A stretch of DNA of 64,000 bases from a virus. Of this stretch, positions 12,332 through 30,885 are shown in pieces (position 1 is the stretch's first letter; each line of letters begins with the position of its first letter). The stretch lies in IMG/VR virus record IMGVR_UViG_3300037149_000105, positions 64,001-128,000 of that record; one strand, written 5' to 3'. Made by a program: the position numbers and the translations under genes. A model generated the notes under the pieces. It had not been told where the DNA came from, did not search any database, and worked only from the letters and a program-made list of their open reading frames with translations.

Positions 12332-12599
12332 AGTTCAGAGGGGTAAGAACACGACCCCCCGAATACCCCGAAACTTCTTCCTGAAAAAAGTCTTTACAAA
12401 GGTTGAAATTCCGGGTATCATTATTACACAGGGTAAGATCACGGTCCTCCCCTGAAACACAAAATTGACAACTGAATAGTGTTTTTAGAAATGACTTGCT
12501 TAGTGCTTTAGGGCACGAAGCGGAAACCAGCCGCAGGGTTAGCCCTGTTCTGATTAAGTGCTGGTGGGTGGGCAACTAGTGAAGGCTCACAAATATCTC

Positions 12600-12689
12600 A
12601 GACGCTTGCAGCAACCAACCCTGGGGGAAACCCCTTTGCCAGGAGTTCTCGCACTCTTCTCCACAAATCAAGAGGGCAAAGGCGTCTAG
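12600..12689 (+). ncRNA. CAGCAA-family RNA, copy A
   Basis: AGACGCT/GGCGTCT closing stem, AGAC-N5-CAGCAA. Confidence 0.65.
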
Positions 12690-12743
12690 TTCTATCGCGT
12701 GATCGGCGTCAACCGGTCATACCAGTTTGACGGCTGGCAGACA

Positions 12744-12796
12744 GTCAGGTGCTACACGAGTTGACAACAACTTGAACTACGCTGCAAAATCCTGAC
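12744..12796 (+). ncRNA. GCTACA/AACTWCGCTGCAAA internal-loop RNA, copy 1
   Basis: GTCAGG/CCTGAC outer stem; loop sequence shared with 18987..19100. Confidence 0.55.
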
Positions 12797-13314
12797 AAGA
12801 GTCGTAAGGCATAGAATGACTTGAGTAGGGGGTCTCACCAAAACCTCATCACGATTCGAGTCACTCAAACAAATACCCTTAGAGTCTGTGGGGCGGCAAC
12901 ATCAGGTGCTCTAGAAAAGCAGAATTGGGTATGATACGGAAATGATTGGGTTCTGATTTCACCGGGAAACCGGGAGCAGAAGACAAAGCCGGGTTAAGTG
13001 AGCGACTCATACGAGCCAGGACGTTTCAGGCCAGCCCCCTTTCTCATAAATGTGGGCATCCCAGCCATAGCGTCACCAAACTTCTGGCACGGGGTGGGCA
13101 TATGTGATCCCACCCACAAATTTCAGCAGACAGCCATCGTTTCCACCACGCTCTATGAGGAGGTGTGAACCCGTGAGGAATGGCCCCAAGAGGAGAACAT
13201 CAGTTTTGTCTGCGAAACCAATTGAAAGTGCCGAGTAACCAGTACCTTCCCAACGGTGGGAATTGGCATAGCCTTCACACAACACGGGCCGCACCCATAC
13301 ACTTTCAATTAAAT

Positions 13315-13391
13315 CGGAAATTGGCGCAGCTTGGTAGCGCGTATGTTTTGGGTACATAAGGTCGAGAGTTCGAATCTCTCATTTCCGACCA
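13315..13391 (+). tRNA. tRNA-Pro(TGG)
   Basis: Cloverleaf, loop TTTGGGT, CCA end. Confidence 0.95.
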
Positions 13392-13392
13392 T

Positions 13393-13468
13393 GCAGAAGT
13401 AGCTCAGTGTTAGAGCGCCTCCCTAAAACGGGAGGCGCTCGGGGGTTCAATTCCTTCCTTTTGCACCA
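13393..13468 (+). tRNA. atypical tRNA, 8-nt anticodon loop CTAAAACG (nominal AAA)
   Basis: GCAGAAG/CTTTTGC acceptor, D and T arms, CCA; CCTCC/GGAGG stem encloses 8 nt. Confidence 0.7.
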
Positions 13469-13697
13469 ATCTAAGGCGATGTGGAAGCTGGGGGCATGGG
13501 GCATTACCCCTTGTAGTGGTCACCCGGAGACACATAGCTCAATTAGCAAGCCCCTAAGACGGGAACGAAAGTCGGCTGTAGCGCGGATTCGGCGTAGCGA
13601 CAGTGCTTCGGCAAACGATGAGTAGCGGTCGCTGAAAGAGTAAGGACCCTCCCGATGAGGAACCCACCTAGTCAGAGTTGCACCTGACCCTTAGATT
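13469..13697 (+). ncRNA. unassigned structured RNA
   Basis: Ends pair (ATCTAAGG/CCTTAGAT); several internal hairpins; between tRNAs. Confidence 0.4.
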
Positions 13698-13716
13698 CCA
13701 TACCATTCAAACCCAT

Positions 13717-13883
13717 GGCGGAGTAGCTCATCTGGTTAGAGCGACTCGCAGGAAAAATTGGAAAGAAAGACAGGGACGAAAATGAGGTGAAGCGCGACGA
13801 TCCTCTCAGTAGAAACTGGATGAGTAACTCCTTGAGTATTCTGTGAATGAGGTGGCACGGTTCAAGTCCTGCCTCCGCTACCA
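13717..13883 (+). tRNA. tRNA-like RNA with about 90-nt expansion in place of the anticodon loop
   Basis: GGCGGAG/CTCCGCT acceptor, TAGCTC..GGTTAGAGC D arm, GGTTCAAGTCC T arm, ACCA end. Confidence 0.75.
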
Positions 13884-14059
13884 ATGACCGTGAGGACTAG
13901 CCCCCTCACACTTGATATTCCGATGGAAGTCCGAAGCGGGAGTCAAAACTGATAGGTGGAGGGAACGGAGCCTTCGGAAACGAGGAAGCTGATTCCCAGA
14001 GAAGCCAGTGACCAGCAATGATGAATTAGGACAGCCGGGACAGGCTCCGGCCATAATCT

Positions 14060-14222
14060 CACCTCAGAGGTAAGGCGGGTGACAACTCGTGTGGTAGCTG
14101 GTGCAATCTCGTGGCCCACACTCTCAACCCCCTAACAGCACTAGGTTCTGGTGAGCCGTTGCAACGGCTTGCATTACAGACCTCGAAACGAGATGCGGGT
14201 AGGAAGAGTCCCCGCTGAGGTG
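14060..14222 (+). ncRNA. unassigned structured RNA
   Basis: CACCTCAG/CTGAGGTG closing helix, internal hairpins. Confidence 0.4.
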
Positions 14223-14360
14223 TTCCAATCAGTAAGATGCAGATGAGGGTAAAAGAAACAAGATCCCCCCAGTTATCGCAAATTCTGCAACTGCCATCCA
14301 AAACTGGTGACTGGTTTCAATCATGCCGGGTAAGCACCCTCTTTGCTGGAGGGACCGGCT

Positions 14361-14569
14361 CCAAATCCGACCTTAAGCAAGTCGAATCGGTGACGCGATA
14401 TAGTCCAGGTCTCTGGGGTGGCTACCCTCGCTAATTGCAGCCCCCTGCGTCTGGCTTCATACGCCGAGTGTCATGACCCTCAGAAGCCACCCTCTTCCAA
14501 GATTTAAGGGTCACTTGAATCTTCTCTCATGAGTTCCGGTGTAAATGGGAGTAGCTAACCGGATTTTTT
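14361..14569 (+). ncRNA. TAAGCAA/TAGCTAA pseudoknot RNA, copy 1
   Basis: Shared 5' and 3' motifs with 14571..14794. Confidence 0.6.
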
Positions 14570-14570
14570 A

Positions 14571-14794
14571 CCAAGATCAGGCTCTAAGCAAGCCGAATCG
14601 TTGGTGCAACGTATAATGCACCGGGTGTGAGTCCCCTTCCTACTCCAGTTGGTGTGGTCTGTAGGTACCTAGGCACCAGTCTCAAGCCCCGAAGACTCTA
14701 AACCCCAAGGCCCTTCTCAGTCTCTGTTGCATGGTTAAAAGTCAGAGGCCGGTGACCCAGTTCCTGTGTCAGTCACCGTAGCTAACAGGTTTTT
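14571..14794 (+). ncRNA. TAAGCAA/TAGCTAA pseudoknot RNA, copy 2
   Basis: Covarying stems relative to copy 1. Confidence 0.6.
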
Positions 14795-14869
14795 CGCCTT
14801 ATCCTATAGCGGTAAGTAGAGTGCCCTTTCACGGCAACAACCGGAGTTCGACTCTCCGTGGGGCGACCA
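14795..14869 (+). tRNA. tRNA-Glu(TTC)
   Basis: Cloverleaf, loop CTTTCAC, CCA. Confidence 0.9.
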
Positions 14870-14871
14870 AT

Positions 14872-14949
14872 GCACCATTAGCTCAGTTGTCCTAGAGCAG
14901 ACGCCTTCTAAGCGTCAGGTCATCAGTTAAAATCTGATATGGTGTACCA
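14872..14949 (+). tRNA. tRNA-Arg(TCT)
   Basis: Cloverleaf, loop CTTCTAA, CCA. Confidence 0.9.
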
Positions 14950-14950
14950 T

Positions 14951-15035
14951 GACGGTGGTGGTCGGATGGATCTGACGCTGGTCTGCAAAACCAGTCCCGG
15001 CAGGGCAATACGGAGTTCAATTCTCCACACCGTCT
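14951..15035 (+). tRNA. tRNA-Cys(GCA), long variable arm, no encoded CCA
   Basis: GACGGTG/CACCGTC, U73, loop CTGCAAA. Confidence 0.8.
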
Positions 15036-15106
15036 CAGTAATACCATCTGAGGGCTACTCCTCTCCCAAGGAAATGCTTGCTTGGTGATGAACCTTCAGT
15101 AAGAAT

Positions 15107-15194
15107 GGCTTAGTGATGCAACTGGCGAGACATGGCAGTCTCAAAAACTGCTCCCTTCAATGGGTTGTGGGTTCGAATCCCACCTGAGCTACCA
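15107..15194 (+). tRNA. tRNA-Leu(CAA)
   Basis: Class II cloverleaf, loop CTCAAAA, CCA. Confidence 0.95.
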
Positions 15195-15196
15195 AA

Positions 15197-15388
15197 AGGA
15201 GTGCCCATGCTCCTCCCAACATTTCGGTGTTGGGTTTGAATGTGCTATCAGTGAGGGGTAGTAACCCTCTGTTCAACCCCTTCGGGGTTGCTCATGCTAA
15301 CCAATTAGTAGCAGCGCATAAAAAGCTACAGAGGCCCCCGGAAGCCGCATGAAACTGCGGATAGGTAGCTGGATCCGACAAAACCAGC
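15197..15388 (+). ncRNA. AGGAGTGCCCATGCTCCT-family RNA, copy 1
   Basis: Conserved blocks shared with 15395..15586. Confidence 0.65.
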
Positions 15389-15394
15389 GAATCT

Positions 15395-15586
15395 AGGAGT
15401 GCCCATGCTCCTCCCATTCGTAGCAGTTTGTAAAATCAGTATACGATTGGGTCAGATGTGTGGTCGTTAAAGGCTGGTAACCTTTCCCGCAAGGGTCGTC
15501 AACGGCTGGTAGCAACACAGAAATTACAGAGGCCAATGGTCGTTCCTCGAAATGGGAACTAGGTAGTTGGAGCCGACAAATCCAAC
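15395..15586 (+). ncRNA. AGGAGTGCCCATGCTCCT-family RNA, copy 2
   Basis: Identical 22-nt start, conserved junctions, different helices. Confidence 0.65.
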
Positions 15587-15994
15587 ACGTTCACTGGCCC
15601 CAGCAATGGGGCCTTTGGTGGTGCTGGTGGACTGCGAGATTGCCCCACAGACCCGTTCCCGAAACGCAGATAGGACAACGGATATTTGACGTAAGGGCCA
15701 GCCGGAGCCTTTGATCCGGCACCTATCTCGGTGCCATTGGATTTGTGGACGAAAGTCTCCCCCAGTGGACAAGGGGTCGGCCCTGATGCTGACCCTCGAC
15801 AAAGTTCAACCCGTGCGCTGCTTGGTCGGCAGCATAGACCTCACGGAGAACACGCAGTTACCCCTAGGAGCAACCAATTGATCAGCTTCTACTGCGTCTG
15901 AATGAGGGTAGTGAAGGGTAGGATAAGTTAAACGGAGGATGGGAACCCCGCAAAGGTCATACCCCACCGGCCCTTCACGATTTTTCTTTGCTCT

Positions 15995-16079
15995 CCCCTG
16001 TTTGCCGCACGGTCTAGGCAGGAGCCTTTTAAGCTCTCCGAGTAATCGATAGCGGGTTCAACTCCCGCACGGGGGACCA
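15995..16079 (+). tRNA. tRNA-Lys(TTT), long variable arm
   Basis: CCCCTGT/ACGGGGG, loop CTTTTAA, CGA-GTAA-TCG extra arm, CCA. Confidence 0.85.
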
Positions 16080-16088
16080 GTTTGACCT

Positions 16089-16164
16089 GGACCTATGACG
16101 CAGCGGTCAGCGTTCTTGGCTCATAACCGAGGAGTCCTAGGTTCGAATCCTAGTGGGTCCACCA
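16089..16164 (+). tRNA. tRNA(CAT), Ile2 or elongator Met
   Basis: Loop CTCATAA, G1-C72 paired, CCA. Confidence 0.9.
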
Positions 16165-16166
16165 AC

Positions 16167-16267
16167 GCGCCTATCGTTTAATGGTAAGACAGCGGCTTTA
16201 TATACCGCCCCGAAAGGAGCCGCCAGATTAGCGGATTTTCCAGGTTCGAGTCCTGGTGGGCGTACCA
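16167..16267 (+). tRNA. tRNA-Ile(TAT) with double-hairpin variable region
   Basis: GCGCCTA/TGGGCGT, loop TTTATAT, about 30-nt variable region, CCA. Confidence 0.8.
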
Positions 16268-16498
16268 ATCTGAGTATTAACAAGTGTTGCCCCTGACTGA
16301 AACTCACTGAGGGGGCATGGGGTAGCGGATCCCCCGACCCAGCCACGCATGTGGAATAAAGATTGAACAGGGAACAGTTTGTGAGTTTAAACAAGACCCA
16401 AGATTCAATCATCCGACGATTTGTTTCAGCTACTGCTGCGTTGAGCAGGAGTCGTTAGATGCTGAAACTCCAGTGGAAACCGTGCCCCACTGGAAAAT

Positions 16499-16572
16499 GC
16501 GGGTTTGATGTAGTGGTAGCATGACATCCTTCCAAGTTGTTCGCGTGAGTTCAATCCTCATAACCCGCTCCA
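16499..16572 (+). tRNA. tRNA-Gly(TCC)
   Basis: GCGGGTT acceptor, loop CTTCCAA, U73-CCA. Confidence 0.9.
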
Positions 16573-16647
16573 GTTCTGACCAATCCGCCCATCTAGGCGG
16601 CGTGGGCTATGGTCCAGCCCTTCGGGAGCACGATACGCTCCCGCCTC

Positions 16648-17172
16648 CTATCTGGTCCTCCAGTACCCCGTTCGGGTTCGAAAATGAATCACGGCGTGAC
16701 AGGTTGGACAAAGCACTTGAAGGTTAGTTTCCTCGTTGTTAGCATGATTTGTGTCAACGTGGTGAACCGTCAGAACCTCTGGAACTTCAGAGTACCCACA
16801 AACCTCACACCTTGCCGGTTTGGCGCGGAAAGCAGTTTCTCGGTAGTCGGTCCTAGTGGTCCCGTAGTGACTGGGCTGGATGGCCACGACACCCCCAATT
16901 CGCTGTGCCGTCTCTTTACAGGCACGATCACAGAAAAATAGACCAGATTTCGAGTTCGATGTCTGACTCTGTTTCCGCACAACAGGCTTCCCGCACTGGG
17001 CACACTCAGCCATGATGGAAGCGGCTTGGGACTTCGCTGCACTACTGCACCCCTTGGAGCAAAACCTAGCTCTCTCCAGTCGGTGTTTTGGTACAAAAAA
17101 CTCCTCCCCGCACTGCTGACACTTGGTCGGAAACACCCTTCTCATTCTTCCGCCGTATTCCATGGTCTTCAT
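16648..17172 (-). CDS. HNH endonuclease with Cys-rich (FCS) zinc-finger repeats
   Basis: CEVCG...VHHVD...NN...NL.VLCPTCH. Confidence 0.85.
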   Translation of the reverse strand: MKTMEYGGRMRRVFPTKCQQCGEEFFVPKHRLERARFCSKGCSSAAKSQAASIMAECAQCGKPVVRKQSQTSNSKSGLFFCDRACKETAQRIGGVVAIQPSHYGTTRTDYRETAFRAKPARCEVCGYSEVPEVLTVHHVDTNHANNEETNLQVLCPTCHAVIHFRTRTGYWRTR

Positions 17173-17235
17173 CTCTTCACCTCAATTGAGGGTGGAAGAG
17201 ATGAAAGTCGCGCAACACTTTCAATTTCATTTCAC

Positions 17236-17315
17236 GGGTCGTAGGGCTACTCGGGGTGGCCATCTCCCTTGCACGGAGAAGATTCAGGTGGGTTCGATTC
17301 CCACACGATCCACCA
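17236..17315 (+). tRNA. tRNA-Ala(TGC)
   Basis: G3-U70, loop CTTGCAC, ACCA. Confidence 0.9.
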
Positions 17316-17710
17316 TTTTGGCACTCCACTCAGTGGGGCGATTACCCGTTTAGAACGATAGGCTGCTTGTGGTTCGGGGGAGCAAGCAGATGCCAATTCA
17401 AATCTGGAGGGTGCGGAGCACCTGATATATGGCACAGTGATACGAGAACGGGTTTGGCCTCTTAGGAGGATGCTGAGAAACCCACCGGAGTGATAAGGCA
17501 GCTTTTTTACCGGTACCTGCCGCTCGTGCGAAGGTCGTCCATGCCGGTTATATCGGACGAACAGAATTCATCTCCAGATCAAACATCTTGTGGAAGCATG
17601 TAGCCACATGCCTGACGAGCGAAGAGCCTGGATGCGAAAGCAGAGAGCGGGTTGAAACAGCCCCAATAATCCCAGGAAGATGAGGTAGCGACTCATCCCA
17701 CATATCTTAT

Positions 17711-17878
17711 CATGGAGCGGCGTGGAAATCGCAGACACGAAACGGGGAGAACCCAGTATCGCAGTTGCTGGCGGGTGCCATAAGAAAGTGCCGACCGTCA
17801 GTATGTAGTATCCCGTGGGCGGAGTAGGTTATAAACAGGACAACCCTTAGCTGGAGTGGCGACCAGCCTCCATGATCA
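17711..17878 (+). ncRNA. tRNA-like RNA with expanded anticodon domain
   Basis: CATGGAG/CTCCATG acceptor-like stem, CGTG/CACG D-like arm, GCTGG/CCAGC T-like arm, ends ATCA. Confidence 0.5.
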
Positions 17879-17950
17879 AATCAAAATGACGGACAGAGCC
17901 GCCCAGCTAGGTGGGTAATAGGAGTAGAGTCCCACTCCTGCTTTCCGTTA

Positions 17951-18040
17951 AAGACCCTCTCAGCAACAAGAAAACGGACGATGGGCCGGTAGTGCTCCCA
18001 CTAGGTCTCCAAGACTAGAGAAAGCTACCAAAGGGTCTTG
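17951..18040 (+). ncRNA. CAGCAA-family RNA, copy B
   Basis: AAGACCCT/AGGGTCTT stem; CTCCAAG loop at 18007-18013. Confidence 0.7.
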
Positions 18041-18130
18041 ATTTTTTCCTTCGAAAGGAGCAATACAATGAGAAAAGAGGCATCCGAAAGTCCTCCTGTG
18101 TAAGCATCTGCTTACGTTTGGAGGTGCCTT

Positions 18131-18283
18131 ATGGCGCAAAGCAAGACGCACGGTAAGTCCGTGCAGCAGATGTCCACCGTGCAGTTGTTAGCGGTGGCAA
18201 AGAGTGGCTCCCTTCTGGCTGCGGCAGCAAAGTATTTGCTGGAGCAGAAAGGGGTGGAGTGGAGGGACAAGAAGAGAAAGTAA
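18131..18283 (+). CDS. small basic protein (50 aa, not in ORF track)
   Basis: GGAGG RBS; MAQSKTHGKSVQQMSTVQLL...RDKKRK. Confidence 0.5.
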   Translation: MAQSKTHGKSVQQMSTVQLLAVAKSGSLLAAAAKYLLEQKGVEWRDKKRK

Positions 18284-18310
18284 CGTCAGACCGGGGAAGC
18301 CCGGTCCCAT

Positions 18311-18385
18311 TGGGGTGTAGCACAACGGTAGTCGCGCTCGGCTTTGACCCGAGTTATGGGGGTTCGATTCCCTCCACCCTAACCA
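18311..18385 (+). tRNA. tRNA-Gln(TTG)
   Basis: Cloverleaf, loop CTTTGAC, CCA. Confidence 0.9.
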
Positions 18386-18584
18386 ATTCGTCTTAGCCCC
18401 TAACGGGGCTTAAGGCAGTGATGACTGGCACTTACCACGATATTGGGCCATGTCGGTTGTATGTGGGTTCGTGGATCCTATTACGATTGTTCCGATTTGC
18501 AATTTCAAATCGGTGGCGATGGGTAGAGGACTTGTCCTCTTCGCCGGTTTCCAACTTCCTAAAAGTTGGTGGTGGAGGCGGTGT

Positions 18585-18752
18585 GATTCCGGTCACGCTT
18601 TCCCCCGTGGGTGTGGGGGTTATCACATCACAAAGCGGCCCTAGATCCGAATGGATCATTTTTAGGTGGTCAAAGACCGTATAGCTGGGTGATGAATCTA
18701 TTCCCAGCATCCATAACACCCACGGGCCGAGAGGTTGATCGTGACCGGAATT
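18585..18752 (+). ncRNA. long rod-like structured RNA
   Basis: ATTCCGGTCACG/CGTGACCGGAAT (12 bp) and CCCGTGGGTGT/ACACCCACGGG (11 bp) nested helices. Confidence 0.5.
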
Positions 18753-18986
18753 AACCGGAATCGCTGGGATAACCAGAATGGGGCTCCAAATACTCAGCTT
18801 CTCCCATCTACCGCTGAGTCAGGTGCAGACGTAGCCAACGGTGAAACGATATACCCCTGGCCATCCGTAAACGCCTTATTGAAGTCACGAACGGTTCGGT
18901 AGGATGATGATGGGCTAACCGAACATCCCCTAAGCAAGGTGCAACACTCTGCTGACCCGTAGTGGGCTCCGGTTACCAACTCACTA

Positions 18987-19100
18987 GACTGACGCTACAC
19001 TATGCGCTGTTGCCTGAAGACGATCCCCACGGGGTGACACCCAACTACCAAAATGGAGAGGTAGGCACAACATAGGAACTTCGCTGCAAAGTTTTCAGTC
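18987..19100 (+). ncRNA. GCTACA/AACTWCGCTGCAAA internal-loop RNA, copy 2
   Basis: GACTGA/TCAGTC outer stem, CTATG/CATAG inner stem. Confidence 0.55.
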
Positions 19101-19134
19101 ACGCTTGACTAGGCATGTTGGTCAAGCACCTCCA

Positions 19135-19538
19135 GGGGGTGACAGGTTTCGACAGGTTATTCTCATTGAATGTGTTTCACGCCCCGGAAAACTGATGGCC
19201 GGGTTAAAAATCAGTTAAAACAAAACTGCCACGATTAACGTAGTAGATTTTGACCGCTCCTTCGTTCCTTCCTTCGCGGAAGTAGCTTAAGGGCAAACCC
19301 TCCGGTAATCGTCTGGTACCCAGGGGGTAAGTTCTATGAGGGTGGCTTCGGCCTGCCGAGTAGGGCTAACAGATCACGCTCCCACTGAGCCTTGTAGGGG
19401 GAGAAGGGAACTAAGGCAAGTCCTCGATCACAGTTGTCTGATACCTGTGCAGAGGTCACGAAGAAACAGACTAAGCGTGTGAATAAGGCACTTCAATAGA
19501 TTTCTTGGACGGGGATTCGATTTCCCCCACCTCCTCCA
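19135..19538 (+). ncRNA. ssrA: tmRNA; tag reading frame 19228-19290 (ATINVVDFDRSFVPSFAEVA*)
   Basis: GGGGGTGACAGGTTTCGAC 5' end, pseudoknot 1, GAC-GGGGATTCGATTTCCCC-CACCTCC-TCCA 3' end, G3-U70. Confidence 0.92.
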
Positions 19539-19613
19539 ATGAGTTCGATTCCTACTCTAACTAAGGAAATAGACTACCCAAATCTAAATTAAAGGTTTGA
19601 CTCAGGAGTAGAG

Positions 19614-20291
19614 ATGATAGCTAATGTTTTATGGGGAATTACCCCTACAGAATTTAAAAAATTAGTTGCTAGTTCTTCTTCTTTTGCAGGTATTCTGCGT
19701 TATTTCAAACTTGCGGATAGCAAGGCTAATCGAAGAGCACTCTACATGCGAATGGGTGAATTGCAATGCAATATTTCCCATTTCACCCTTCGGAAAAGGG
19801 TAAAATCACCATCTTTACCAAACTTCGAAATTTTTTGTGAGCATTCGCCTCTTAGTCGAAAGAATGTAAAAATGAGAATACTTCGTGATAACTTGCTTCC
19901 TTATGTTTGTAAATGTGGAAACTCAGGCAATTGGGAAGGAAAAAAGCTCGTGCTCCAACTAGAGCATAAAAATGGAATAGGGGACGATAATCGTCTTAAT
20001 AATTTGGAATTCATATGTCCTAATTGCCATAGTCAAACTGCCACATTTGCAGGAAGACAAAATGCCCTAAATAACCCCCCCGTTCATAACCATCATGAGC
20101 GATGGAATCAACGAAAATTAAAATGGCCCACAAAAGAAGAACTAGAGTATCTTGTTTGGAGTAAGCCAACAACTGAGTTAGCCAAAGAGTTCGAAGTTAG
20201 TGACTCAGCAATCAGTAGGTGGTGCCGCTGCTACTCCATTAAAAAACCCGGACGAGGGTATTGGACAGCGAAAAAACCCATCTCTCCGTAG
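19614..20291 (+). CDS. HNH endonuclease with C-terminal HTH
   Basis: LQLEHKNG...DNRLNNLEFICPNCHSQT; LAKEFEVSDSAISRW. Confidence 0.9.
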   Translation: MIANVLWGITPTEFKKLVASSSSFAGILRYFKLADSKANRRALYMRMGELQCNISHFTLRKRVKSPSLPNFEIFCEHSPLSRKNVKMRILRDNLLPYVCKCGNSGNWEGKKLVLQLEHKNGIGDDNRLNNLEFICPNCHSQTATFAGRQNALNNPPVHNHHERWNQRKLKWPTKEELEYLVWSKPTTELAKEFEVSDSAISRWCRCYSIKKPGRGYWTAKKPISP

Positions 20292-20358
20292 ATTAACTGG
20301 ACAAATCACTGGTCTCCGAAACCAGAGAGTGCCAATTCGAGTTTGGTCGGAGAGACCA
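20282..20358 (+). tRNA. tRNA-Arg(CCG)
   Basis: CTCTCCG/CGGAGAG, loop CTCCGAA, CCA; overlaps HNH stop codon. Confidence 0.85.
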
Positions 20359-20422
20359 TCTGACATTCATCTACCAAGTGTAGAAGGAAATCGGGAGGCG
20401 CTATGCGACTCCTCGTAAAATT

Positions 20423-20519
20423 TAGACATGTGCAGCAATCAAAAACCTCGTATGCAGACATGGCTTCGTGCCCCTGCAAAAAAGTTTCGGCGTTCTGTAA
20501 AAACGTCAAACGTGTCTAG
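20423..20519 (+). ncRNA. CAGCAA-family RNA, copy C
   Basis: TAGACATG/CGTGTCTA stem; GGCGTT-CTGTAAA-AACGTC stem-loop at 20489-20507. Confidence 0.75.
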
Positions 20520-20560
20520 CTTTTTAAAACTTCCGTTTCCTCTTTTGAATGGAGGGTAAC

Positions 20561-20905
20561 ATGCTTAGTGATGCTATTGATGATCATCAGAATATTCGAG
20601 ACAGATTGGTCAAGTTCATAAGTAAAGAGCCCTTCAATGCTATGGACTTGTTCTCCGTTCGAAGAGACTATAACTGTGATCTGGGCTCCTGGCTTTGGAA
20701 GCATCGAAATGCGGAAATAGCCGACAAAAAAGAGTATCAGGAACTCGTGGGGATTCATCATAATTTTCATGAGATTGCTTATAAAGCTCTAATGCTGGGA
20801 TCTGATAATAAACCAGAAGAGGCTTTCGCGGTTTTGGTTGGCCCCTACGCAGTAATAGAGAAGCAACTGATCGAAGCTATCGTCAACCTTGGAGATGTCG
20901 AATGA
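20561..20905 (+). CDS. stand-alone chemoreceptor zinc-binding (CZB) domain protein
   Basis: H...CDLGSWL...HHNFH ligand pattern; GGAGG RBS before ATG 20561. Confidence 0.75.
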   Translation: MLSDAIDDHQNIRDRLVKFISKEPFNAMDLFSVRRDYNCDLGSWLWKHRNAEIADKKEYQELVGIHHNFHEIAYKALMLGSDNKPEEAFAVLVGPYAVIEKQLIEAIVNLGDVE

Positions 20906-21486
20906 AGAAACAAATGCATTATTCCCTTGGCCTCTACCCTCTGCGGAGTAGTGGCTATCGGGCTTTCGTCGGCTTCCGCCCCGTGTGGAGGTTCTGGGGC
21001 CATTGGATCAACCCACAGACCTATTGGAGAGCCGTCAAATACTTCTGTCAGCGTGGCTACAGGGGATACGCAGATTGCGATCACTGGGACATGGATAGCT
21101 ACCTCGAAAACGTGATGTTGGGTCTGTTCCGCGATCTCAAGAAGCATACGCAAGGCTACCCAAGCGGTATGGGTGATCGGATCATTGACACGGAAGGAAC
21201 TGATACTGGTTTCGAAAAATGGCAGGCTACCCTCACCGAGATCATTGAAGGTCTGGAAGCTTCCCAGGAACTCAAAGATGAGTTTACGGTTCCGGAGGGA
21301 ACCTATAGCAAGGAGCCTATCTATTGGGAGCCGGTCGAGGGCCATGAGGATTGCTTTCGAATGAAGGAAACTGAGACTCCTCGTTTCAATAAGGAGCTTC
21401 ACGATCAATGGTCTGCTCCGTTGAAAAGGAAGTGCCTGAGAGCTAAGACTTTAATGGCTCGTTATTGGGGTTGCTTCTGGGACTAA
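20902..21486 (+). CDS. hypothetical protein
   Basis: ATGA overlap; 194 aa. Confidence 0.75.
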   Translation: MKKQMHYSLGLYPLRSSGYRAFVGFRPVWRFWGHWINPQTYWRAVKYFCQRGYRGYADCDHWDMDSYLENVMLGLFRDLKKHTQGYPSGMGDRIIDTEGTDTGFEKWQATLTEIIEGLEASQELKDEFTVPEGTYSKEPIYWEPVEGHEDCFRMKETETPRFNKELHDQWSAPLKRKCLRAKTLMARYWGCFWD

Positions 21487-21491
21487 AAACA

Positions 21492-21576
21492 CCCCGAATG
21501 GCGGAAGTGGCGAGACGCGCGAGACTTAAAATCTCGCATCCGTAAGGGTATGAGGGTTCGAATCCCTCTTCGGGGA
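21492..21576 (+). tRNA. tRNA-Leu(TAA), no encoded CCA
   Basis: CCCCGAA/TTCGGGG, loop CTTAAAA, class II arm. Confidence 0.92.
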
Positions 21577-22200
21577 CAGGTGATGCCTAATAGCATTATC
21601 AGACACTCCTAATTCTCTGGCTAACACAGAAAAGTTGGAAGTAGCAAGACGCGCAAGTAGTTCTTCATGCGAAGGCCACTCTATTTTTGTCGGTTGTGGT
21701 TTTATAGACTTCTTTTCTTTAGGAGGGGAGGGTGACTTTGAGATATTTTTACCTCGATAGGTATCAGTTTGTGCATGGCAATTAGGGCAAATTACTCTAA
21801 GATTACTTAGGGTATTATCCATATGATTACCATTGATATGGTCCAATTCTAGGGGGATCGAGAGCTTGTTCCATTTAACTAACCCACATATACCACATTG
21901 TTTTATGAATACCCCCTCTGAAAAGAGCTTTTGTTTCAGTTTTGCTGATTGAATAGGGAAGCGGTTGTTTAAATAATCATCCAGGTCTCGTCTTGGCGGG
22001 AGTTTCACCCCTTTGCTCCAGCTTTTCCCCACAAAGTGCTTAGTGCTAACTGGCCATTTTTTGAGCGTTTGATAAAATTGCCGGTAGTTTCCTCCCTCAG
22101 CAACAATGTTGAGTTTGGTTAACACCTCCCGCACACAAGTGGAGCCTAACACTGCTTCTTTGAAAATTTCCTCAGTATAAGTTCGTTCAATCCGTTTCAT
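21526..22200 (-). CDS. HNH endonuclease with C-terminal HTH
   Basis: LELDHING...DN.LSNLRVICPNCHAQT; paralog of 19614..20291. Confidence 0.9.
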   Translation of the reverse strand: MKRIERTYTEEIFKEAVLGSTCVREVLTKLNIVAEGGNYRQFYQTLKKWPVSTKHFVGKSWSKGVKLPPRRDLDDYLNNRFPIQSAKLKQKLFSEGVFIKQCGICGLVKWNKLSIPLELDHINGNHMDNTLSNLRVICPNCHAQTDTYRGKNISKSPSPPKEKKSIKPQPTKIEWPSHEELLARLATSNFSVLARELGVSDNAIRHHLSPKRDSNPHTLTDARF

Positions 22201-22240
22201 TGGCAGCCTCTAAAGAAGGGCTGCATATTCCATTTCCTCC

Positions 22241-22328
22241 GGAAGATCGGTGTAGTTGGAGGGGCACACTAGTCTTGAAAACTAGGGTCCGAAAGGGCCA
22301 GCGGGTTCGAATCCCACATCTTCCGCCA
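22241..22328 (+). tRNA. tRNA-Ser(TGA)
   Basis: GGAAGAT acceptor, loop CTTGAAA, long arm, GCCA. Confidence 0.92.
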
Positions 22329-22329
22329 T

Positions 22330-22403
22330 GCCAATGTAGTTCAGTGGTAGAACCCGAGCCTTGTAAACTCGCCACGACAGTTCGATTCTGTCCCTTGGCT
22401 CCA
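22330..22403 (+). tRNA. tRNA-Thr(TGT)
   Basis: GCC acceptor start, loop CTTGTAA, CCA; mismatches at 6-67 and 31-39. Confidence 0.85.
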
Positions 22404-22466
22404 ACACCCCCTTTCTCTGCTTTACCCTTACCTGATAGCAGAGCAGGTTCGCCTTAAGGAGGCAAT

Positions 22467-23378
22467 GTGATTATGCACAACAACAACACCGTAGTATCCC
22501 TTTACGCCCTGAATGGTAGCCGAAAGACCCCGCTCAGAGAATACGATCACAAGCGTGGGGTTCTTGAATCTGAAGTTAGGGTTCCATTGAAATTTGATTC
22601 TGAGTATGGAATCGGTTTCAAGTTTCAGGACATCGGTCGTCGTCGCCTTGAACTCTGGATTGACGGAGCGATGGTGACGGACAATCTCATTCTCGATGGA
22701 GAGAGCTTCCTGGAGCGATTCATGGATTCTGACAAGAGATTCCGTTTCGTTGAAGCAAGCAATGCTGCCGTGGCTGATCCGACCAGTCCCTCCAATGGGG
22801 GAGTCATGGTGAAGCTATGGCGTGAACAGCCTGATCTCCAGATGTTCAAACTGGCCCCGGATTACGGCAAGCAGTGGCCGCAGCCCCCAGTAGCCCCTTG
22901 GCAGCCCTGGACTCCTCCAGTAGTGTGGGGCCGCTCTGATTGCCCAGGAGATCCTTCGCGGTCCTTGGATGTCATGTGTGGGGGCGCTACGTCATCTTCC
23001 TCACCCTCCGGTCCTCAAGGTCCGGTTGGTCAGCAAGGAGCCGTTGGAGTGCGAGGAATTGGGTATGGTGACAACATCGGAGAGTGTAATCTCTTCTGTT
23101 CATCCGCTCAGTCTCCCAGCCTCGCTGATGGATTCTGTTCGACGGAGATGTCCAACCTATCCCTCTTCGATAAGCTGAAGGGAGCGACAGTTGAAGGATC
23201 CACCTCCAAGCAGACCTTCAATGATACGGTTTGGCTGGGTGACTTTGGTAGCCCCTTGGTTTTCAAGTTCCAGCTTCACGGAATCGAAGAAGCCACACCG
23301 GGCAATTTCTGCCCAGGTTGTGGGATTAAACGCAAGAATCCCACTAACTTCTGCCCCAATTGTGGAGCAAAGCAATAG
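22467..23378 (+). CDS. hypothetical protein with C-terminal zinc ribbon
   Basis: AAGGAGG RBS; FCPGCG...FCPNCG. Confidence 0.8.
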   Translation: MIMHNNNTVVSLYALNGSRKTPLREYDHKRGVLESEVRVPLKFDSEYGIGFKFQDIGRRRLELWIDGAMVTDNLILDGESFLERFMDSDKRFRFVEASNAAVADPTSPSNGGVMVKLWREQPDLQMFKLAPDYGKQWPQPPVAPWQPWTPPVVWGRSDCPGDPSRSLDVMCGGATSSSSPSGPQGPVGQQGAVGVRGIGYGDNIGECNLFCSSAQSPSLADGFCSTEMSNLSLFDKLKGATVEGSTSKQTFNDTVWLGDFGSPLVFKFQLHGIEEATPGNFCPGCGIKRKNPTNFCPNCGAKQ

Positions 23379-23538
23379 TGGACCGAACCTTCAAAGTTAC
23401 CCCACCCTATGGTGGGTATCCCTACTGCTTCCATGGTTCAGCATAGGGCACTCTTTGAAGTAGCATGGGGACTATAATCCCGGTGGTAAAGCCTCCACAA
23501 GGGGCCTGGACGGTTCGACTCCGCCCCATGCGATTAAT

Positions 23539-23628
23539 GGAAGTGTAAGCAAAGCAGGCAAGCTAGACTGTCTCGAAAACAGTTGGCCGATTTTCGGCCT
23601 AGGCGTTCGACCCGCCTCACTTCCGCCA
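23539..23628 (+). tRNA. tRNA-Ser(CGA)
   Basis: GGAAGTG/CACTTCC, loop CTCGAAA, long arm, GCCA. Confidence 0.9.
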
Positions 23629-23669
23629 TCATATTTGTGTGAGTCTTTAAAATAGACTAATGTCAAACT

Positions 23670-23745
23670 TGGACTGTAACTTCAGAGGCAGAAGGCTGCT
23701 TTTACACGGCAGAGGTCGAGATTTCGAAATTCTCCAGTCCAACCA
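23670..23745 (+). tRNA. tRNA-Val(TAC)
   Basis: TGGACTG/CAGTCCA, loop TTTACAC, CCA. Confidence 0.9.
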
Positions 23746-23814
23746 ATCCTCATCTTTCCGAACTACCGAGTATTATCATTGTAGGACAGTGTGAGTCTGA
23801 AACCCAGACTGACG

Positions 23815-23835
23815 ACACACACACACACACACACA
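23815..23835 (+). repeat. (AC)10A dinucleotide tract
   Basis: Perfect repeat directly continuing a conserved hairpin. Confidence 0.95.
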
Positions 23836-24444
23836 GGAAGCAGTTCATTGAAAATGGTCTCAGCAGTCCGACACACGCTTAGGCCACCAAGGGGAGAACG
23901 AGATTAGCTCATGGAGAGCATCGGTTCTTTAGGCGTAGGGGATACCCTCACCACCGTGTGAAACGTTCGATTCGACTTCTCAGACTCCCCGATTATATGC
24001 CACAGTAGTAAGTGTGGGCCTACAAAATAGGCTAATGACACGGTTAAGAGGTCTGAGTCGGTCACTGCCTTAGCCGGGGAACCGGATCCAGGTTCCCCGG
24101 ATTTATACAAATCGTTGAAGCCCCTCAAGGTCCTTGGGGCTCCGATATGGCGGCAACCAGATGAATGGTTGACAAAAGCAAGAGGCCGCTCTTCAAGGCA
24201 GAGCGAGTTCAGTTACGGCAACAACGGAGTCGATTCTCCATAGCGGGCTACCGCAAATCGCTTTGAAAGACTGAGCCCCCCGGCTCTCCGAAGACAGGAA
24301 TCGTGAAACGGAGAGTGGAAGAAGTCCGAACCACTGGGGAGGAAAAGTTGCCGATGTGGGTAAGGTACGAAAGTATTGAATCCCACCCACCATGCACACG
24401 CCCCTGAACCAAACCTTCAGGGGCGTTCCATTTCAGGAGAGAAA

Positions 24445-25167
24445 ATGTTTGAGCCAAAAAAACTGAGTCCAGCGGAATTGTGCTTATGCCAGAACACCAT
24501 CAGCCCCAATACATTCTACATGTTGGTTGGGGATGCGCTGGTATCTGGTAAACCCCTCTCGGTAGTTCGAATGGGGGATGGGGAACGAGCCCTCTATGAC
24601 TACTGTCTGGGGAAACAGCTACCCAATATCATGGATGCGGATTGGATGCAACGACTCGGAGCCGATGGTATCGCAACGGATGAACTCCGGTATCGCCTGA
24701 TTCGTGCCGCCACCCACTGCACCCACTTCGCTCCTTCCATTTCAGGAATTCAATTGGACAGTTTCGAACTCTACTCCCTATTCCCAGCCCGAGCCCGTTA
24801 CGTTGATAACTTTTTTGTCAACGCCTGGACGGAGGAGATGAAGATTCAACTTTTCAAAACTGCTGGCCATGTTCTCTTTATCCATCGGAACACTTCCACC
24901 GCAGATGCGATGCAGATCAGAGCCAAATGGGGTCTAGGAGTCAAGGTGACCTATCTGAAGCTAGCTAGTTGGCGGGATTCGGAGTCAGTGATTGAGAAGG
25001 CCAAGAGCATAGATGCTCCGCTAGTGCTGTTCAGTGCTGGTCCCGCTAGCAAATACATCGGTCCTGAAATTTCAACGAGTGGTTTGATTCCTCGTGTCAC
25101 TTTGGATATCGGCAATGTGGCAGACTATTGGACCCTCACGAGTCTGAAAGATGTTCAAAGAATTTAA
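24445..25167 (+). CDS. GT-D fold-like putative glycosyltransferase
   Basis: SVVRMGDGE, L.SAGP..K, LDIG motifs. Confidence 0.6.
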   Translation: MFEPKKLSPAELCLCQNTISPNTFYMLVGDALVSGKPLSVVRMGDGERALYDYCLGKQLPNIMDADWMQRLGADGIATDELRYRLIRAATHCTHFAPSISGIQLDSFELYSLFPARARYVDNFFVNAWTEEMKIQLFKTAGHVLFIHRNTSTADAMQIRAKWGLGVKVTYLKLASWRDSESVIEKAKSIDAPLVLFSAGPASKYIGPEISTSGLIPRVTLDIGNVADYWTLTSLKDVQRI

Positions 25168-25460
25168 AAAATTGTATACGGATTTGCCAAAACTATGGTA
25201 TAATATAGGTGTAGGGCAGATCATTGACAAGAAGCTCCAACGACGAGAGAACACAGAGGTAAGCCTCGTCGCTGTAGGGTTTGCAATCTAGCTTGGGGCA
25301 TCGAAAGATGCGAACTTGATTCTTCGGAATCAACGGCACAACACAGGATGTGTTTCACCAAGCTTTATGTCGAGATTAGGGAAGCGCACCCAGAACGCTT
25401 CTTAACCAAAGTCCCGATACCACCCCAGTTGCATCCTCCACCTTCTAATGACTGCGACAA

Positions 25461-25487
25461 GAGCCCCGAAAGGGGCTCAAGTTTTTT
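25461..25487. terminator. intrinsic terminator between convergent units
   Basis: GAGCCCC-GAAA-GGGGCTC followed by T tract. Confidence 0.75.
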
Positions 25488-30834: not shown

Positions 30835-30885
30835 TAGACGCTAACAGCAATCTCATCCCCTGTAACGGAACGAAACTGCGTCTAG
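30835..30885 (+). ncRNA. CAGCAA-family RNA, copy D (minimal), leader of Ro60-like gene
   Basis: TAGACGC/GCGTCTA stem; CC-CTGTAAC-GG loop; just after -10-like GGTATTAT. Confidence 0.7.

What the first reader, a model, noticed from the sequence alone, without database searches (positions are those of the whole stretch)
12480..25480. About 13-kb RNA operon in which most non-tRNA space is an array of unassigned structured RNAs
Seen: between the tRNAs lie several kb with no credible ORFs, built from consecutive 50-250-nt modules each closed by its own terminal helix (e.g. GCAGACAG/TTGTCTGC near 13126-13213, AATTGAAAGTG/CACTTTCAATT near 13220-13310, 13469-13697, 14060-14222, GTGAAGGG/CCCTTCAC near 15911-15978, TCTGGAG/CTCCAGA near 17403-17578, 18585-18752) and separated by short A/C-rich linkers like those between tRNAs. 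Known: large ncRNAs such as GOLLD and ROOL occur in phage tRNA clusters. Inference: a co-transcribed, processed arsenal of many small RNAs, denser than a normal tRNA array.
Basis: partly seen in the sequence, partly recalled or inferred. Interest (0 to 1): 0.75.

Follow-up and report, generated by a model that had tools for sequence, protein, structure and literature searches.

The report
Phage tRNA island packed with structured RNAs
An uncultured 147-kb phage carries, between its tRNA genes, about 4.8 kb of protein-free DNA that evolves like folded RNA genes and is swapped as cassettes among related phages, so this phage encodes many small RNAs of mostly unknown kinds.

Summary
That part holds 13 tRNAs, one tRNA-like gene with an insertion, a tmRNA, one HNH gene, one 50-aa ORF and 4,758 nt of spacer. 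The spacers evolve as non-coding DNA. Against the most distant array-bearing lineage they are 84% identical, versus 75% for coding DNA. About half of the spacer length has a conserved structure with compensatory changes; the rest has no divergent relative to test.

From 19.6 to 25.2 kb the non-tRNA space is mostly protein genes: two more HNH endonucleases and four others.

Only some modules can be placed:
- Three belong to a new AGAC-N5-CAGCAA RNA family. It also flanks the gene of a Ro60-fold protein (30940-32376), including in distant phages that lack the array.
- One is a sub-threshold wcaG-like RNA.
- One is cloverleaf-shaped.

Rfam places nothing else, and 50,697 GenBank phages match only at tRNAs. 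Related phages differ by whole-module swaps, insertions and deletions.

Co-transcription, processing and function are inferred only; no RNA reads could be obtained. Unchecked notes from this scan describe smaller structured-RNA islands beside tRNA clusters in other phages. I rate it a new variant of a known kind.

The parts
12466..12495 (+). Promoter-like site (TTGACA ... TAGAAAT) ahead of the first RNA module. Other sigma-70-like sites lie at 12302-12331 and 12393-12421.
   Evidence: scan; the count is not above shuffles. The motif is conserved in lineages B and C but not D (alignment).
12600..12687 (+). AGAC-N5-CAGCAA RNA, copy 1 (candidate Y-RNA-like). The 5' and 3' ends form the closing helix; the inner part is variable.
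   Evidence: Orthologues occur in all four lineages that cover this part of the array (92% identity to lineage D).
12692..13116 (+). Conserved structured block of about 425 nt with several helices, including GAAA-capped hairpins.
   Evidence: 84-88% identical across lineages. Consensus-fold z is -7.1 against column shuffles, but the compensatory-pair count is not significant (10 of 60 shuffles reach it). Alignment.
13126..13213 (+). 88-nt module with an invariant 8-bp closing helix and covarying inner helices. It is followed by GAAACCAAT, a 3' end like those of the tRNAs.
   Evidence: 31 pairs, 3 with changes on both sides; z -3.3, 0 of 60 shuffles reach the count.
13220..13310 (+). 91-nt lineage-specific module closed by an 11-bp helix. 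The same slot holds a tRNA-like RNA (acceptor stem plus T arm) in lineages C and D.
   Evidence: z -2.25.
13315..13468 (+). tRNA-Pro(UGG), followed by a tRNA that ARAGORN reads with a 4-base anticodon (AAAA).
13469..13702 (+). Cassette of about 230 nt, present here and absent from lineage C (L008), lying exactly between two tRNA-type genes.
   Evidence: breakpoints at 13471 and 13702. Single-sequence fold z is -0.5.
13716..13882 (+). tRNA-like gene with acceptor, D and T arms and an insertion of about 80-85 nt in the anticodon loop. No intron family matches.
   Evidence: Read from the sequence. T-loop hit at 13860. Not called by ARAGORN or Rfam.
13883..14794 (+). 912-nt ORF-free block. Only 14318-14568 is shared with lineage D, and that part has a conserved structure.
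   Evidence: for 14318-14568, z -5.0 and 5 compensatory pairs (0 of 60 shuffles reach it). Alignment.
14795..15194 (+). tRNA-Glu, tRNA-Arg, tRNA-Cys, a 70-nt hairpin spacer, then tRNA-Leu(CAA).
15195..15994 (+). 800-nt block. It holds a twice-repeated 22-nt hairpin 'punctuation' (15197 and 15395), two paralogous modules of about 150 nt (about 15235-15393 and 15440-15590), further modules, and the 15911-15978 module.
   Evidence: 15395-15600 z -2.4 with 3 compensatory pairs; 15715-15994 z -8.9 with 9 compensatory pairs.
15995..16264 (+). tRNA-Lys, tRNA-Met and a 98-nt Ile-like tRNA with an insertion.
16265..16498 (+). 234-nt spacer made of hairpins, partly shared with lineage D.
   Evidence: z -4.4 for 16350-16499; z -2.75.
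16499..16572 (+). tRNA-Gly(UCC).
16578..16657 (+). 80-nt cloverleaf-shaped RNA (a closing helix plus three hairpins) without the tRNA consensus.
   Evidence: 98.9% of cells paired, 5 pairs changed on both sides (3 of 500 shuffles reach that), 0-1 pairs when the partners are slid.
16648..17172 (-). HNH homing endonuclease gene, absent from lineages B and D.
17236..17315 (+). tRNA-Ala(UGC).
17316..17951 (+). Structure is unsupported because relatives differ too little. In L002 and L003, 17737-18054 is replaced.
   Evidence: z -1.1, 0 compensatory pairs.
17952..18038 (+). AGAC-N5-CAGCAA RNA, copy 2. In L002 and L003 a different paralogue of the same family sits in this slot.
18131..18283 (+). 50-aa ORF with a GGAGG ribosome-binding site. 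It is probably a real small gene and is absent from lineage D.
   Evidence: No Pfam match.
18311..18385 (+). tRNA-Gln(UUG).
18484..18584 (+). wcaG-like RNA. It matches RF01761 end to end but scores below the gathering threshold.
   Evidence: 30.9 bits against a threshold of 42; 34.5 bits in L022 and 31.9 in L002. The middle hairpin is compensated in L022.
18585..18762 (+). Module with nested long-range helices of 12 and 11 bp in this lineage. The shorter local hairpins are the part conserved elsewhere.
   Evidence: z -5.6; 18568-18711 z -6.8 with 13 compensatory pairs.
18790..19000 (+). 210-nt module of six helices with long invariant unpaired stretches.
   Evidence: 8 sequences, 94% of cells paired, 10 pairs changed on both sides (2 of 500 shuffles reach that), 0-1 when the partners are slid.
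19001..19134 (+). Conserved leader before the tmRNA. It holds a GAACTTCGCTGCAAAGT motif, whose only other genome copy is at 12776, and a covarying hairpin.
   Evidence: 19075-19134 z -3.1.
19135..19538 (+). tmRNA.
   Evidence: 95.9 bits.
19614..20291 (+). HNH homing endonuclease gene, absent from L002. A tRNA 3' fragment lies at 19541-19565.
20282..20358 (+). tRNA-Arg(CCG).
20424..20517 (+). AGAC-N5-CAGCAA RNA, copy 3.
20549..21486 (+). Two protein genes: a 118-aa CZB-domain protein and a 194-aa protein of unknown function.
   Evidence: Their mismatch pattern is that of coding DNA.
21492..21577 (+). tRNA-Leu(UAA).
21526..22200 (-). HNH homing endonuclease gene.
   Evidence: phrog_10822, E 2.8e-41.
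22241..22403 (+). tRNA-Ser(UGA) and tRNA-Thr(UGU).
22467..23378 (+). 303-aa protein gene with a C-terminal zinc ribbon.
23449..23742 (+). Degenerate tRNA-like element (23449-23533), tRNA-Ser(CGA) at 23539-23628, and a further tRNA at 23670-23742.
23743..24375 (+). 630-nt non-coding stretch holding a (CA)n run, a tRNA relic and a conserved structured block at 24064-24375.
   Evidence: 24064-24375 z -7.5 with 7 compensatory pairs (1 of 60 shuffles reach it)..
24376..25167 (+). 263-aa GT-D-fold-like protein gene.
25461..25478 (+). Strong intrinsic terminator (7-bp G+C-rich stem followed by a T run), marking the end of the plus-strand block.
30836..30883 (+). AGAC-N5-CAGCAA RNA, copy 4, lying 57 nt upstream of the Ro60-like gene and outside the flagged span.
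30940..32376 (+). DUF2828/DUF7788 protein with a predicted Ro60 (TROVE plus vWA) fold. It is the probable partner of the CAGCAA RNAs.
   Evidence: pLDDT 82.7; the 12 best hits listed are all Ro60/TROVE chains, E 1e-8 to 1e-4, TM about 0.5.

Best explanation
The flagged region is the RNA island of an uncultured 147-kb phage.

Shown: on one strand and tightly packed, it holds 18 tRNA genes, two tRNA-like genes, a tmRNA and at least 15-20 further conserved RNA modules of 50-430 nt. These are interrupted by three HNH homing-endonuclease genes and, in the distal half, four other protein genes. The non-tRNA modules are under selection as folded RNAs. They behave as independent cassettes: related phages differ by whole-module insertions, deletions and replacements, in one case by a paralogue of the same family. 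Three modules belong to a new RNA family (AGAC-N5-CAGCAA ... closing helix ... U-rich tail). In distant phages that lack the array, this family sits on both sides of the gene for a protein with a predicted Ro60 fold.

Inferred: the RNAs are made from a few long transcripts starting near 12.3-12.5 kb and ending at the terminator at 25461-25478. Host tRNA-processing enzymes (RNase P, RNase Z or E) release them, with the tRNAs acting as punctuation. The CAGCAA RNAs act as Y-RNA-like partners of the phage Ro60-like protein. The remaining modules are stable small RNAs: partners, decoys or regulators. They probably serve the RNA repair, quality-control and counter-defence functions that the neighbouring genes point to (P-loop kinase, metallophosphoesterases, HD-domain protein in this window; CCA-adding enzyme and RNA ligase per earlier unchecked notes on this genome). 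HNH homing and recombination at the conserved junctions shuffle the cassettes.
For: Non-coding evolution: successive mismatches fall a multiple of 3 apart in only 8-26% of cases, against 27-56% in coding controls (34-56% with one short 119-nt alignment set aside). Only 5 of 83 gaps are multiples of 3.

Conservation: against lineage D the spacers are 84.3% identical, tRNAs 88.1%, tmRNA 83.0% and coding DNA 75.4%.

Conserved structure: consensus-fold z is below -3 for 12 of 16 spacer blocks and reaches -10. Compensatory pairs exceed all 60 column shuffles for 9 blocks. The tmRNA control gives z -8.7 and the tRNA control -4.6. Coding controls give -0.6 to -2.4, with one at -4.1.

Helix excess.

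Cassette mosaic.

CAGCAA family: covariation in the closing helix across paralogues, and copies flanking the DUF2828 gene in L016-L018. The Ro60 fold is shown.

wcaG-like hits occur in three lineages.

Transcription context: one strand, and no strong + strand terminator-like site before the one at 25461. CCA is encoded in 14 of 16 tRNAs.

Repair-type neighbours.
Against: - No expression data, so discrete transcripts and their ends are unproven.
- Only about five lineages are available. Covariation is modest per module, and about 2 kb (13220-13310, 13469-13715, 13883-14317, 14569-14794, 17316-17951) has no divergent relative.
- The single-sequence stability scan is unremarkable (mean z -0.65).
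- Strand tests are inconclusive: summed consensus energy is -540 on the + strand against -517 on the - strand. GNRA/UNCG-type tetraloop hairpins number 12 on + and 8 on -.
- One coding control also reached z -4.1.
- The CAGCAA motif differs from the known Ro60-binding motifs GNCGAA and GGUCCGA (PMC4201824).
- U-rich tails after the CAGCAA modules could mean separate small transcription units rather than one operon.
Confidence: 0.6

Rival explanations
1. The spacers are cis-acting parts of the tRNA/tmRNA precursor. They would be processing handles, stabilisers, attenuators or partial terminators that set the yield of the flanking tRNAs, and would be discarded after cleavage rather than acting as RNAs themselves.
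For: - The modules abut tRNAs within 1-16 nt.
- A 22-nt hairpin is repeated as punctuation.
- Several modules end in T-rich tracts.
- tRNA-like 'handles' occupy one slot in relatives.
- An unchecked note from this scan on another phage reached the same reading.
Against: - Simple handles would not need 4.8 kb, six-helix modules with long invariant single-stranded stretches, or a family that also occurs without tRNAs next to a Ro60-like gene.
- Cassettes come and go without loss of the flanking tRNAs.
Confidence: 0.15
2. One or a few very large ornate RNAs, GOLLD/ROOL-like, with tRNAs embedded in their linkers, rather than many small RNAs.
For: GOLLD and ROOL lie near phage tRNA islands, and GOLLD linkers can hold tRNAs (PMC12286853). 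Blocks of 425-912 nt exist here (12692-13116, 13883-14794).
Against: - No GOLLD or ROOL hit at E <= 5.
- Relatives keep or lose sub-blocks independently; for example, only 14318-14568 of the 912-nt block is present in lineage D.
- Supported helices are local, and no conserved long-range pairing between blocks was seen.
Confidence: 0.08
3. Non-functional debris: decaying tRNA genes and scars left by homing-endonuclease and recombination events.
For: tRNA fragments and relics are present: 19541-19565, 23449-23533 and about 23905-23985. Three HNH genes lie in the island. Cassette turnover is high.
Against: The spacers are more conserved than coding DNA and keep their helices through compensatory changes. 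A tRNA-shaped scan finds only the annotated tRNAs.
Confidence: 0.06
4. Hidden protein coding: many small proteins, or genes read under a reassigned stop codon.
For: One 50-aa ORF with a good ribosome-binding site exists (18131-18283). Gene callers placed a few short genes in relatives.
Against: - There is no 3-periodicity in mismatches, and indels are not multiples of 3.
- Frames opened by reading TGA, TAG or TAA as sense run through tRNA genes.
- The rest of the genome has ORFs of up to 2188 aa under the standard code.
Confidence: 0.02

Closest known systems
Small stable RNAs in phage tRNA clusters: T4 species 1 and 2 RNAs (rnaC, rnaD). This rests on my own knowledge; I did not find it in the papers I read.
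   Same: Non-tRNA stable RNAs encoded inside a phage tRNA gene cluster on the same strand. In T4 they are released with the tRNAs and their function is unknown. T4's cluster also holds a homing endonuclease, SegB (PMC2330249).
   Different: T4 has two such RNAs in about 1.6 kb. Here there are at least 15-20 modules in about 4.8 kb with no sequence relation to T4, plus a tmRNA and a Ro60-linked family.
GOLLD and ROOL large ornate RNAs
   Same: Phage or prophage RNAs of unknown function, often next to tRNA islands (PMC12286853).
   Different: No match to either Rfam model. This island consists of many short, independently shuffled modules rather than one 500-800-nt fold.
Y RNAs (YrlA/YrlB, Yrn1) encoded beside Ro60/Rsr in bacteria and phages (Chen et al. 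2014, PMC4201824)
   Same: RNAs of 48-112 nt whose 5' and 3' ends form a stem around a variable inner part. They are encoded next to a gene for a protein with a Ro60 fold, in several paralogues per genome.
   Different: - The conserved 5'-strand motif is AGAC-N5-CAGCAA, not GNCGAA or GGUCCGA.
- There is no tRNA-like D/T domain. The YrlA model hits only tRNA pairs, far below threshold.
- The protein is a DUF2828/DUF7788 type with no sequence-level match to Ro60.
- Binding is untested.
wcaG RNA motif (RF01761; Weinberg et al. 2010, PMC2864571)
   Same: A three-hairpin layout with matching conserved linkers (GUGG, GGUUUC, CUUCC, GUGG, GAG) across the whole model. It is phage-borne. In cyanophage S-CREM1 it sits within 1 kb of other non-coding RNAs (PMC9964418).
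   Different: - Scores of 30.9-34.5 bits fall below the gathering score of 42.
- It lies inside an RNA array, not in a 5' UTR of exopolysaccharide or high-light genes.
- This phage shows no sign of being a marine T4-like cyanophage, and its host is unknown.
tRNA punctuation and tRNA-like processing signals (the mitochondrial punctuation model; plant mitochondrial t-elements)
   Same: Transcripts are cut at tRNA or tRNA-like structures, releasing whatever lies between. Relatives carry acceptor-plus-T-arm RNAs in one slot.
   Different: Processing here is only inferred. The released pieces would be structured non-coding RNAs, not mRNAs or rRNAs.

Membership tests
tRNA (RF00005), applied to the non-tRNA modules | Cloverleaf with a 7-bp acceptor stem, a T arm with the GTTCRANYC loop, a D arm and a 7-nt anticodon loop. 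| tested here: not met
   Rfam at E <= 5 and ARAGORN (with and without introns) call only the 18 tRNAs. An acceptor-plus-T-arm scan recovers 16 of those tRNAs and no spacer module. The 16578-16657 RNA is cloverleaf-shaped but lacks the consensus.
Y RNA / YrlA | Encoded next to a Ro60 (TROVE) gene. | tested here: met
   Copy 4 lies 57 nt upstream of the Ro60-fold gene. In L016-L018, copies lie on both sides of that gene.
Y RNA / YrlA | An 80-130-nt RNA whose ends form a long stem enclosing a large internal loop or module. | tested here: met
   Lengths are 48-112 nt. The closing helix is 6-8 bp and positions 5-7 covary among paralogues.
Y RNA / YrlA | Conserved Ro-binding motif (GNCGAA(N)G in bacteria, GGUCCGA in vertebrates) and, for YrlA, a tRNA-like D/T domain. 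| tested here: not met
   The motif here is AGAC-N5-CAGCAA. The RF02553 model hits only adjacent tRNA pairs, at 21-31 bits against a threshold of 69.
Y RNA / YrlA | Binds the Ro60 protein. | not testable with these tools
   Needs RIP-seq or a gel-shift assay.
wcaG RNA (RF01761) | Score at or above Rfam's gathering threshold (42 bits). | tested here: not met
   30.9, 31.9 and 34.5 bits in three lineages.
wcaG RNA (RF01761) | Three hairpins with the conserved joining sequences. | tested here: met
   The alignment runs end to end (positions 1-98) with the conserved linkers present. The middle hairpin is compensated in L022.
wcaG RNA (RF01761) | Location in the 5' UTR of exopolysaccharide or high-light genes. 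| tested here: not met
   It lies between tRNA-Gln and the tmRNA, with no ORF downstream for about 1 kb.
GOLLD / ROOL | Match to the family covariance model. | tested here: not met
   No hit at E <= 5 in the window or at E <= 0.5 in five related loci.
Group I intron or self-cleaving ribozymes (as an explanation of the tRNA insertions or of processing) | Match to the Rfam intron or ribozyme models. | tested here: not met
   None listed at E <= 5.
tmRNA (RF00023) | Full-length match above threshold, with a tag reading frame. | tested here: met
   95.9 bits over positions 1-374. ARAGORN reads a tag peptide.

The most novel reading that the evidence does not exclude
The island is an RNA counterpart of a phage anti-defence island. 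Each cassette would be a separate decoy, partner or guide RNA aimed at a different RNA-binding protein of host or phage, such as the Ro60-like particle, anticodon nucleases, tRNA-modifying or repair enzymes, or CRISPR proteins. Related phages would trade these RNA cassettes by homing and recombination to keep pace with host defences. The AGAC-N5-CAGCAA RNAs would then be the first cognate RNAs for the very large DUF2828 branch of Ro60-like proteins (at least 7,968 members).
Probability: 0.2. Interest if true: 0.85.

Novelty: new variant of a known kind. Interest (0 to 1): 0.62.

Why it matters
Phage tRNA clusters are usually annotated as tRNAs plus empty spacer. Here the spacer is at least as conserved as the tmRNA and holds about 4.8 kb of RNA-type sequence. 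About half of it has a demonstrably conserved structure, and almost none belongs to a catalogued family.

If the modules are stable RNAs, this one phage lineage would add a dozen or more new RNA families. It would also offer a natural system of RNA cassettes shuffled among phages, and a testable RNA partner for a Ro60-like protein family with thousands of members and no known RNA.

It also bears on current questions about why phages carry tRNAs, and so on the conflict between host RNA-targeting defences and phage repair.

Tried and rejected
- Known phages: megablast of the 13 kb against 50,697 GenBank phages gave no match. Sensitive blastn of 12480-19134 matched only at tRNA-Pro and tRNA-Gly.
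- Internal repeats: a self-blast found almost no paralogy by sequence.
- Stability: the sliding-window MFE scan gave no global signal.
- Strand tests by consensus energy and by tetraloop counts were inconclusive.
- Distant homologues of the 194-aa ORF (L015-L019) lie in dense coding DNA without an array, so they gave no extra covariation.
- The one metagenome scan returned only three short loci.
- IMG/VR holds only two related contigs. One pattern scan there was wasted on a mis-specified pattern.
- A relaxed CAGCAA scan is non-specific; only the four exact-motif copies are credible.
- Type I-C CRISPR-repeat mimics (ATTGAAAS) are at chance level inside the array.
- Stop-codon reassignment is rejected.
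- The putative promoter motif CGCTGCAAA occurs only twice and remains unexplained.
- The PDB sequence search with the DUF2828 protein found nothing; only the fold search did.

Full report
**What the window is.** The window is bases 64001-128000 of a single 147,410-bp virus record. No GenBank phage is close to it. ARAGORN and Rfam find 18 tRNA genes and a tmRNA, all on the + strand between 13315 and 23742. The only other Rfam hit of note is a sub-threshold wcaG match.

**Checking the observation.** From 12459 to 19134 the only credible coding is a minus-strand HNH gene (16648-17172) and a 50-aa ORF with a GGAGG site (18131-18283). Reading TGA, TAG or TAA as sense opens only frames that cross tRNA genes. 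That leaves 4,758 nt of non-tRNA spacer.

From 19.6 to 25.2 kb the picture changes. Two more HNH genes, a CZB-domain gene, a 194-aa gene, a 303-aa zinc-ribbon gene and a GT-D-like gene fill most of the space. The '13-kb RNA operon' is therefore a 7-kb RNA-dense core plus a mixed tail.

Long-range perfect inverted repeats are enriched in the spacers: 32 8-mers against 13.8 +/- 4.8 in shuffles, and 8 10-mers against 1.0. A coding control shows no excess. Single-sequence folding energies are ordinary, with mean z -0.65.

**Relatives.** Two IMG/VR contigs and about 20 contigs from ENA, JGI and Logan carry the same array. They fall into about five lineages:
- A: the window and L003
- B: L002 and L007
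- C: L005, L008 and L009
- D: L010-L014
- E: L020-L025

More distant homologues of the 194-aa gene sit in ordinary dense coding DNA without an array.

**The spacers are selected, and not as protein.**
- Against lineage D the spacers are 84.3% identical. tRNAs are 88.1%, the tmRNA 83.0% and coding DNA 75.4%.
- Successive mismatches are a multiple of three apart in 8-26% of cases, against 27-56% in coding controls (34-56% apart from one short alignment). Only 5 of 83 gaps are multiples of three.

**They are selected as structure.**
- RNAalifold on multi-lineage alignments, compared with column-shuffled versions, gives z below -3 for 12 of 16 spacer blocks, reaching -10. Compensatory pairs exceed all 60 shuffles in nine blocks.
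- The tmRNA control (z -8.7) and tRNA control (z -4.6) behave the same way. Coding controls give -0.6 to -2.4, with one outlier at -4.1.
- Formal pair counts agree:
  - The 88-nt 13126-13213 RNA has an invariant closing helix and 3 pairs changed on both sides.
  - The cloverleaf-shaped 16578-16657 RNA has 98.9% of cells paired and 5 such pairs.
  - The six-helix 18790-19000 RNA has 94% paired and 10 such pairs. Slid-partner controls give 0-1.
- About 2 kb has no divergent relative and stays untested: 13220-13310, 13469-13715, 13883-14317, 14569-14794 and 17316-17951.

**Cassettes.** Block edges between lineages coincide with module edges.
- 13471-13702 is present here and absent in L008.
- 13223-13307 is replaced in lineages C and D by a tRNA-like RNA with an acceptor stem and a T arm.
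- 17737-18054 is replaced in L002 and L003 by a different paralogue of the same RNA family.
- 13955-15722 is 100% identical to L002, although the flanks are 79-85% identical.
- The three HNH genes are present or absent between lineages. One left a tRNA 3' fragment behind the tmRNA.

**What can be named.**
1. An RNA family with the layout AGAC-N5-CAGCAA ... CAAA-N-GTCT has copies at 12600-12687, 17952-18038, 20424-20517 and 30836-30883. Positions 5-7 of its closing helix covary among paralogues, and a U-rich tract follows each copy. Further paralogues occur in every array-bearing lineage that covers these positions. In the array-less phages L016-L018, copies lie just upstream and just downstream of the DUF2828/DUF7788 gene. 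The window's homologue of that gene (30940-32376) folds with pLDDT 82.7, and its 12 best PDB matches are all Ro60/TROVE structures. The family is very large, with at least 7,968 members. These RNAs are therefore good candidates for Y-RNA-like partners, although their motif differs from the known Ro-binding motifs.
2. 18484-18584 aligns end to end with the wcaG model, with its conserved linkers. It scores 30.9-34.5 bits in three lineages, below the threshold of 42.
3. 13716-13882 is a tRNA-like gene with an insertion of about 80-85 nt in its anticodon loop.

Everything else is unplaced: Rfam shows nothing at E <= 5, and the phage database matches only at tRNAs.

**How it probably works (inference).** All RNA genes share one strand. 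Promoter-like sites lie at 12302-12495. No strong + strand terminator-like site precedes the strong one at 25461-25478. Modules abut tRNAs by 1-16 nt, and 14 of 16 tRNAs encode CCA, which accounts for the 'A/C-rich linkers'.

The simplest reading is a few long precursors cut by the host's tRNA-processing enzymes, which frees the intervening folded RNAs. The U-rich tails after the CAGCAA modules leave room for separate small transcription units.

The neighbouring genes in this window include a P-loop kinase, metallophosphoesterases, an HD-domain protein and the Ro60-like protein. Earlier unchecked notes on this genome add a CCA-adding polyvalent protein and an RNA-ligase operon. Together these suggest a role in RNA repair, quality control and counter-defence. 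No module's function is shown.

**Comparison and novelty.** Extra stable RNAs in phage tRNA clusters are known: T4 species 1 and 2 (my own knowledge), and GOLLD and ROOL near tRNA islands (PMC12286853). Y RNAs next to Ro60 in phages are also known (PMC4201824). Earlier unchecked notes of this scan describe smaller structured-RNA islands beside tRNA clusters in other phages.

What is new here is the scale, the cassette behaviour, the lack of known families, and the Ro60-linked CAGCAA family. I rate it a new variant of a known kind, with interest 0.62.

Noticed in passing
window 13393-13468: ARAGORN reads this tRNA with a 4-base anticodon (AAAA) in what looks like an enlarged loop. Rfam scores it at 52.7 bits. 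It could be a frameshift-type or otherwise unusual tRNA.
   Followed up: no
window 12776-12792 and 19078-19094: The motif GAACT(A/T)CGCTGCAAA(A/G)T occurs only twice in the 147-kb genome, both times in the array. The second copy lies about 40 nt before the tmRNA. It is conserved in relatives and could be a promoter or a processing signal.
   Followed up: partly
window 15197-15218 and 15395-15416: An identical 22-nt element (hairpin GGAGTGCCCATGCTCC followed by TCCCA) precedes each of two paralogous modules of about 150 nt. Those modules share the motifs TACAGAGGCC and TAGGTAG..GGA.CCGACAAA.
   Followed up: partly
window 23818-23837: A (CA)10 microsatellite lies inside the non-coding stretch downstream of the last tRNA.
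   Followed up: no
window 24012-24043 and 30264-30295: A 32-nt direct repeat (30 of 32 identical) links the end of the array with the region upstream of the Ro60-like gene. It is also present in L002 and L003.
   Followed up: no
window 30890-30924: A hairpin followed by TGGATTGAAAC, like a type I-C CRISPR repeat, lies 16 nt before the start of the Ro60-like gene. It sits between that gene and CAGCAA RNA copy 4.
   Followed up: no
window 19135-19538: The tag that ARAGORN reads in the phage tmRNA (ATINVVDFDRSFVPSFAEVA) does not end in the usual ...LAA-type degron. tmRNA identity to lineage D is only 83%.
   Followed up: no
L002 11660-12094: ARAGORN calls a tRNA-Phe(AAA) with a 339-nt intron in lineage B, where the window has the degenerate tRNA-like element and tRNA-Ser. 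No group I intron model matches.
   Followed up: no
L015 6531-10797: A more distant relative encodes a 1994-aa fused multisubunit-type RNA polymerase (Rpb2 plus Rpb1 domains). If this phage has one too, promoters need not be sigma-70-like.
   Followed up: no
window 13490-13501 and 16311-16322: The motif GGGGGCATGGGG is shared by the 13469-13702 cassette and the 16265-16498 spacer, which hints at another small module family.
   Followed up: no
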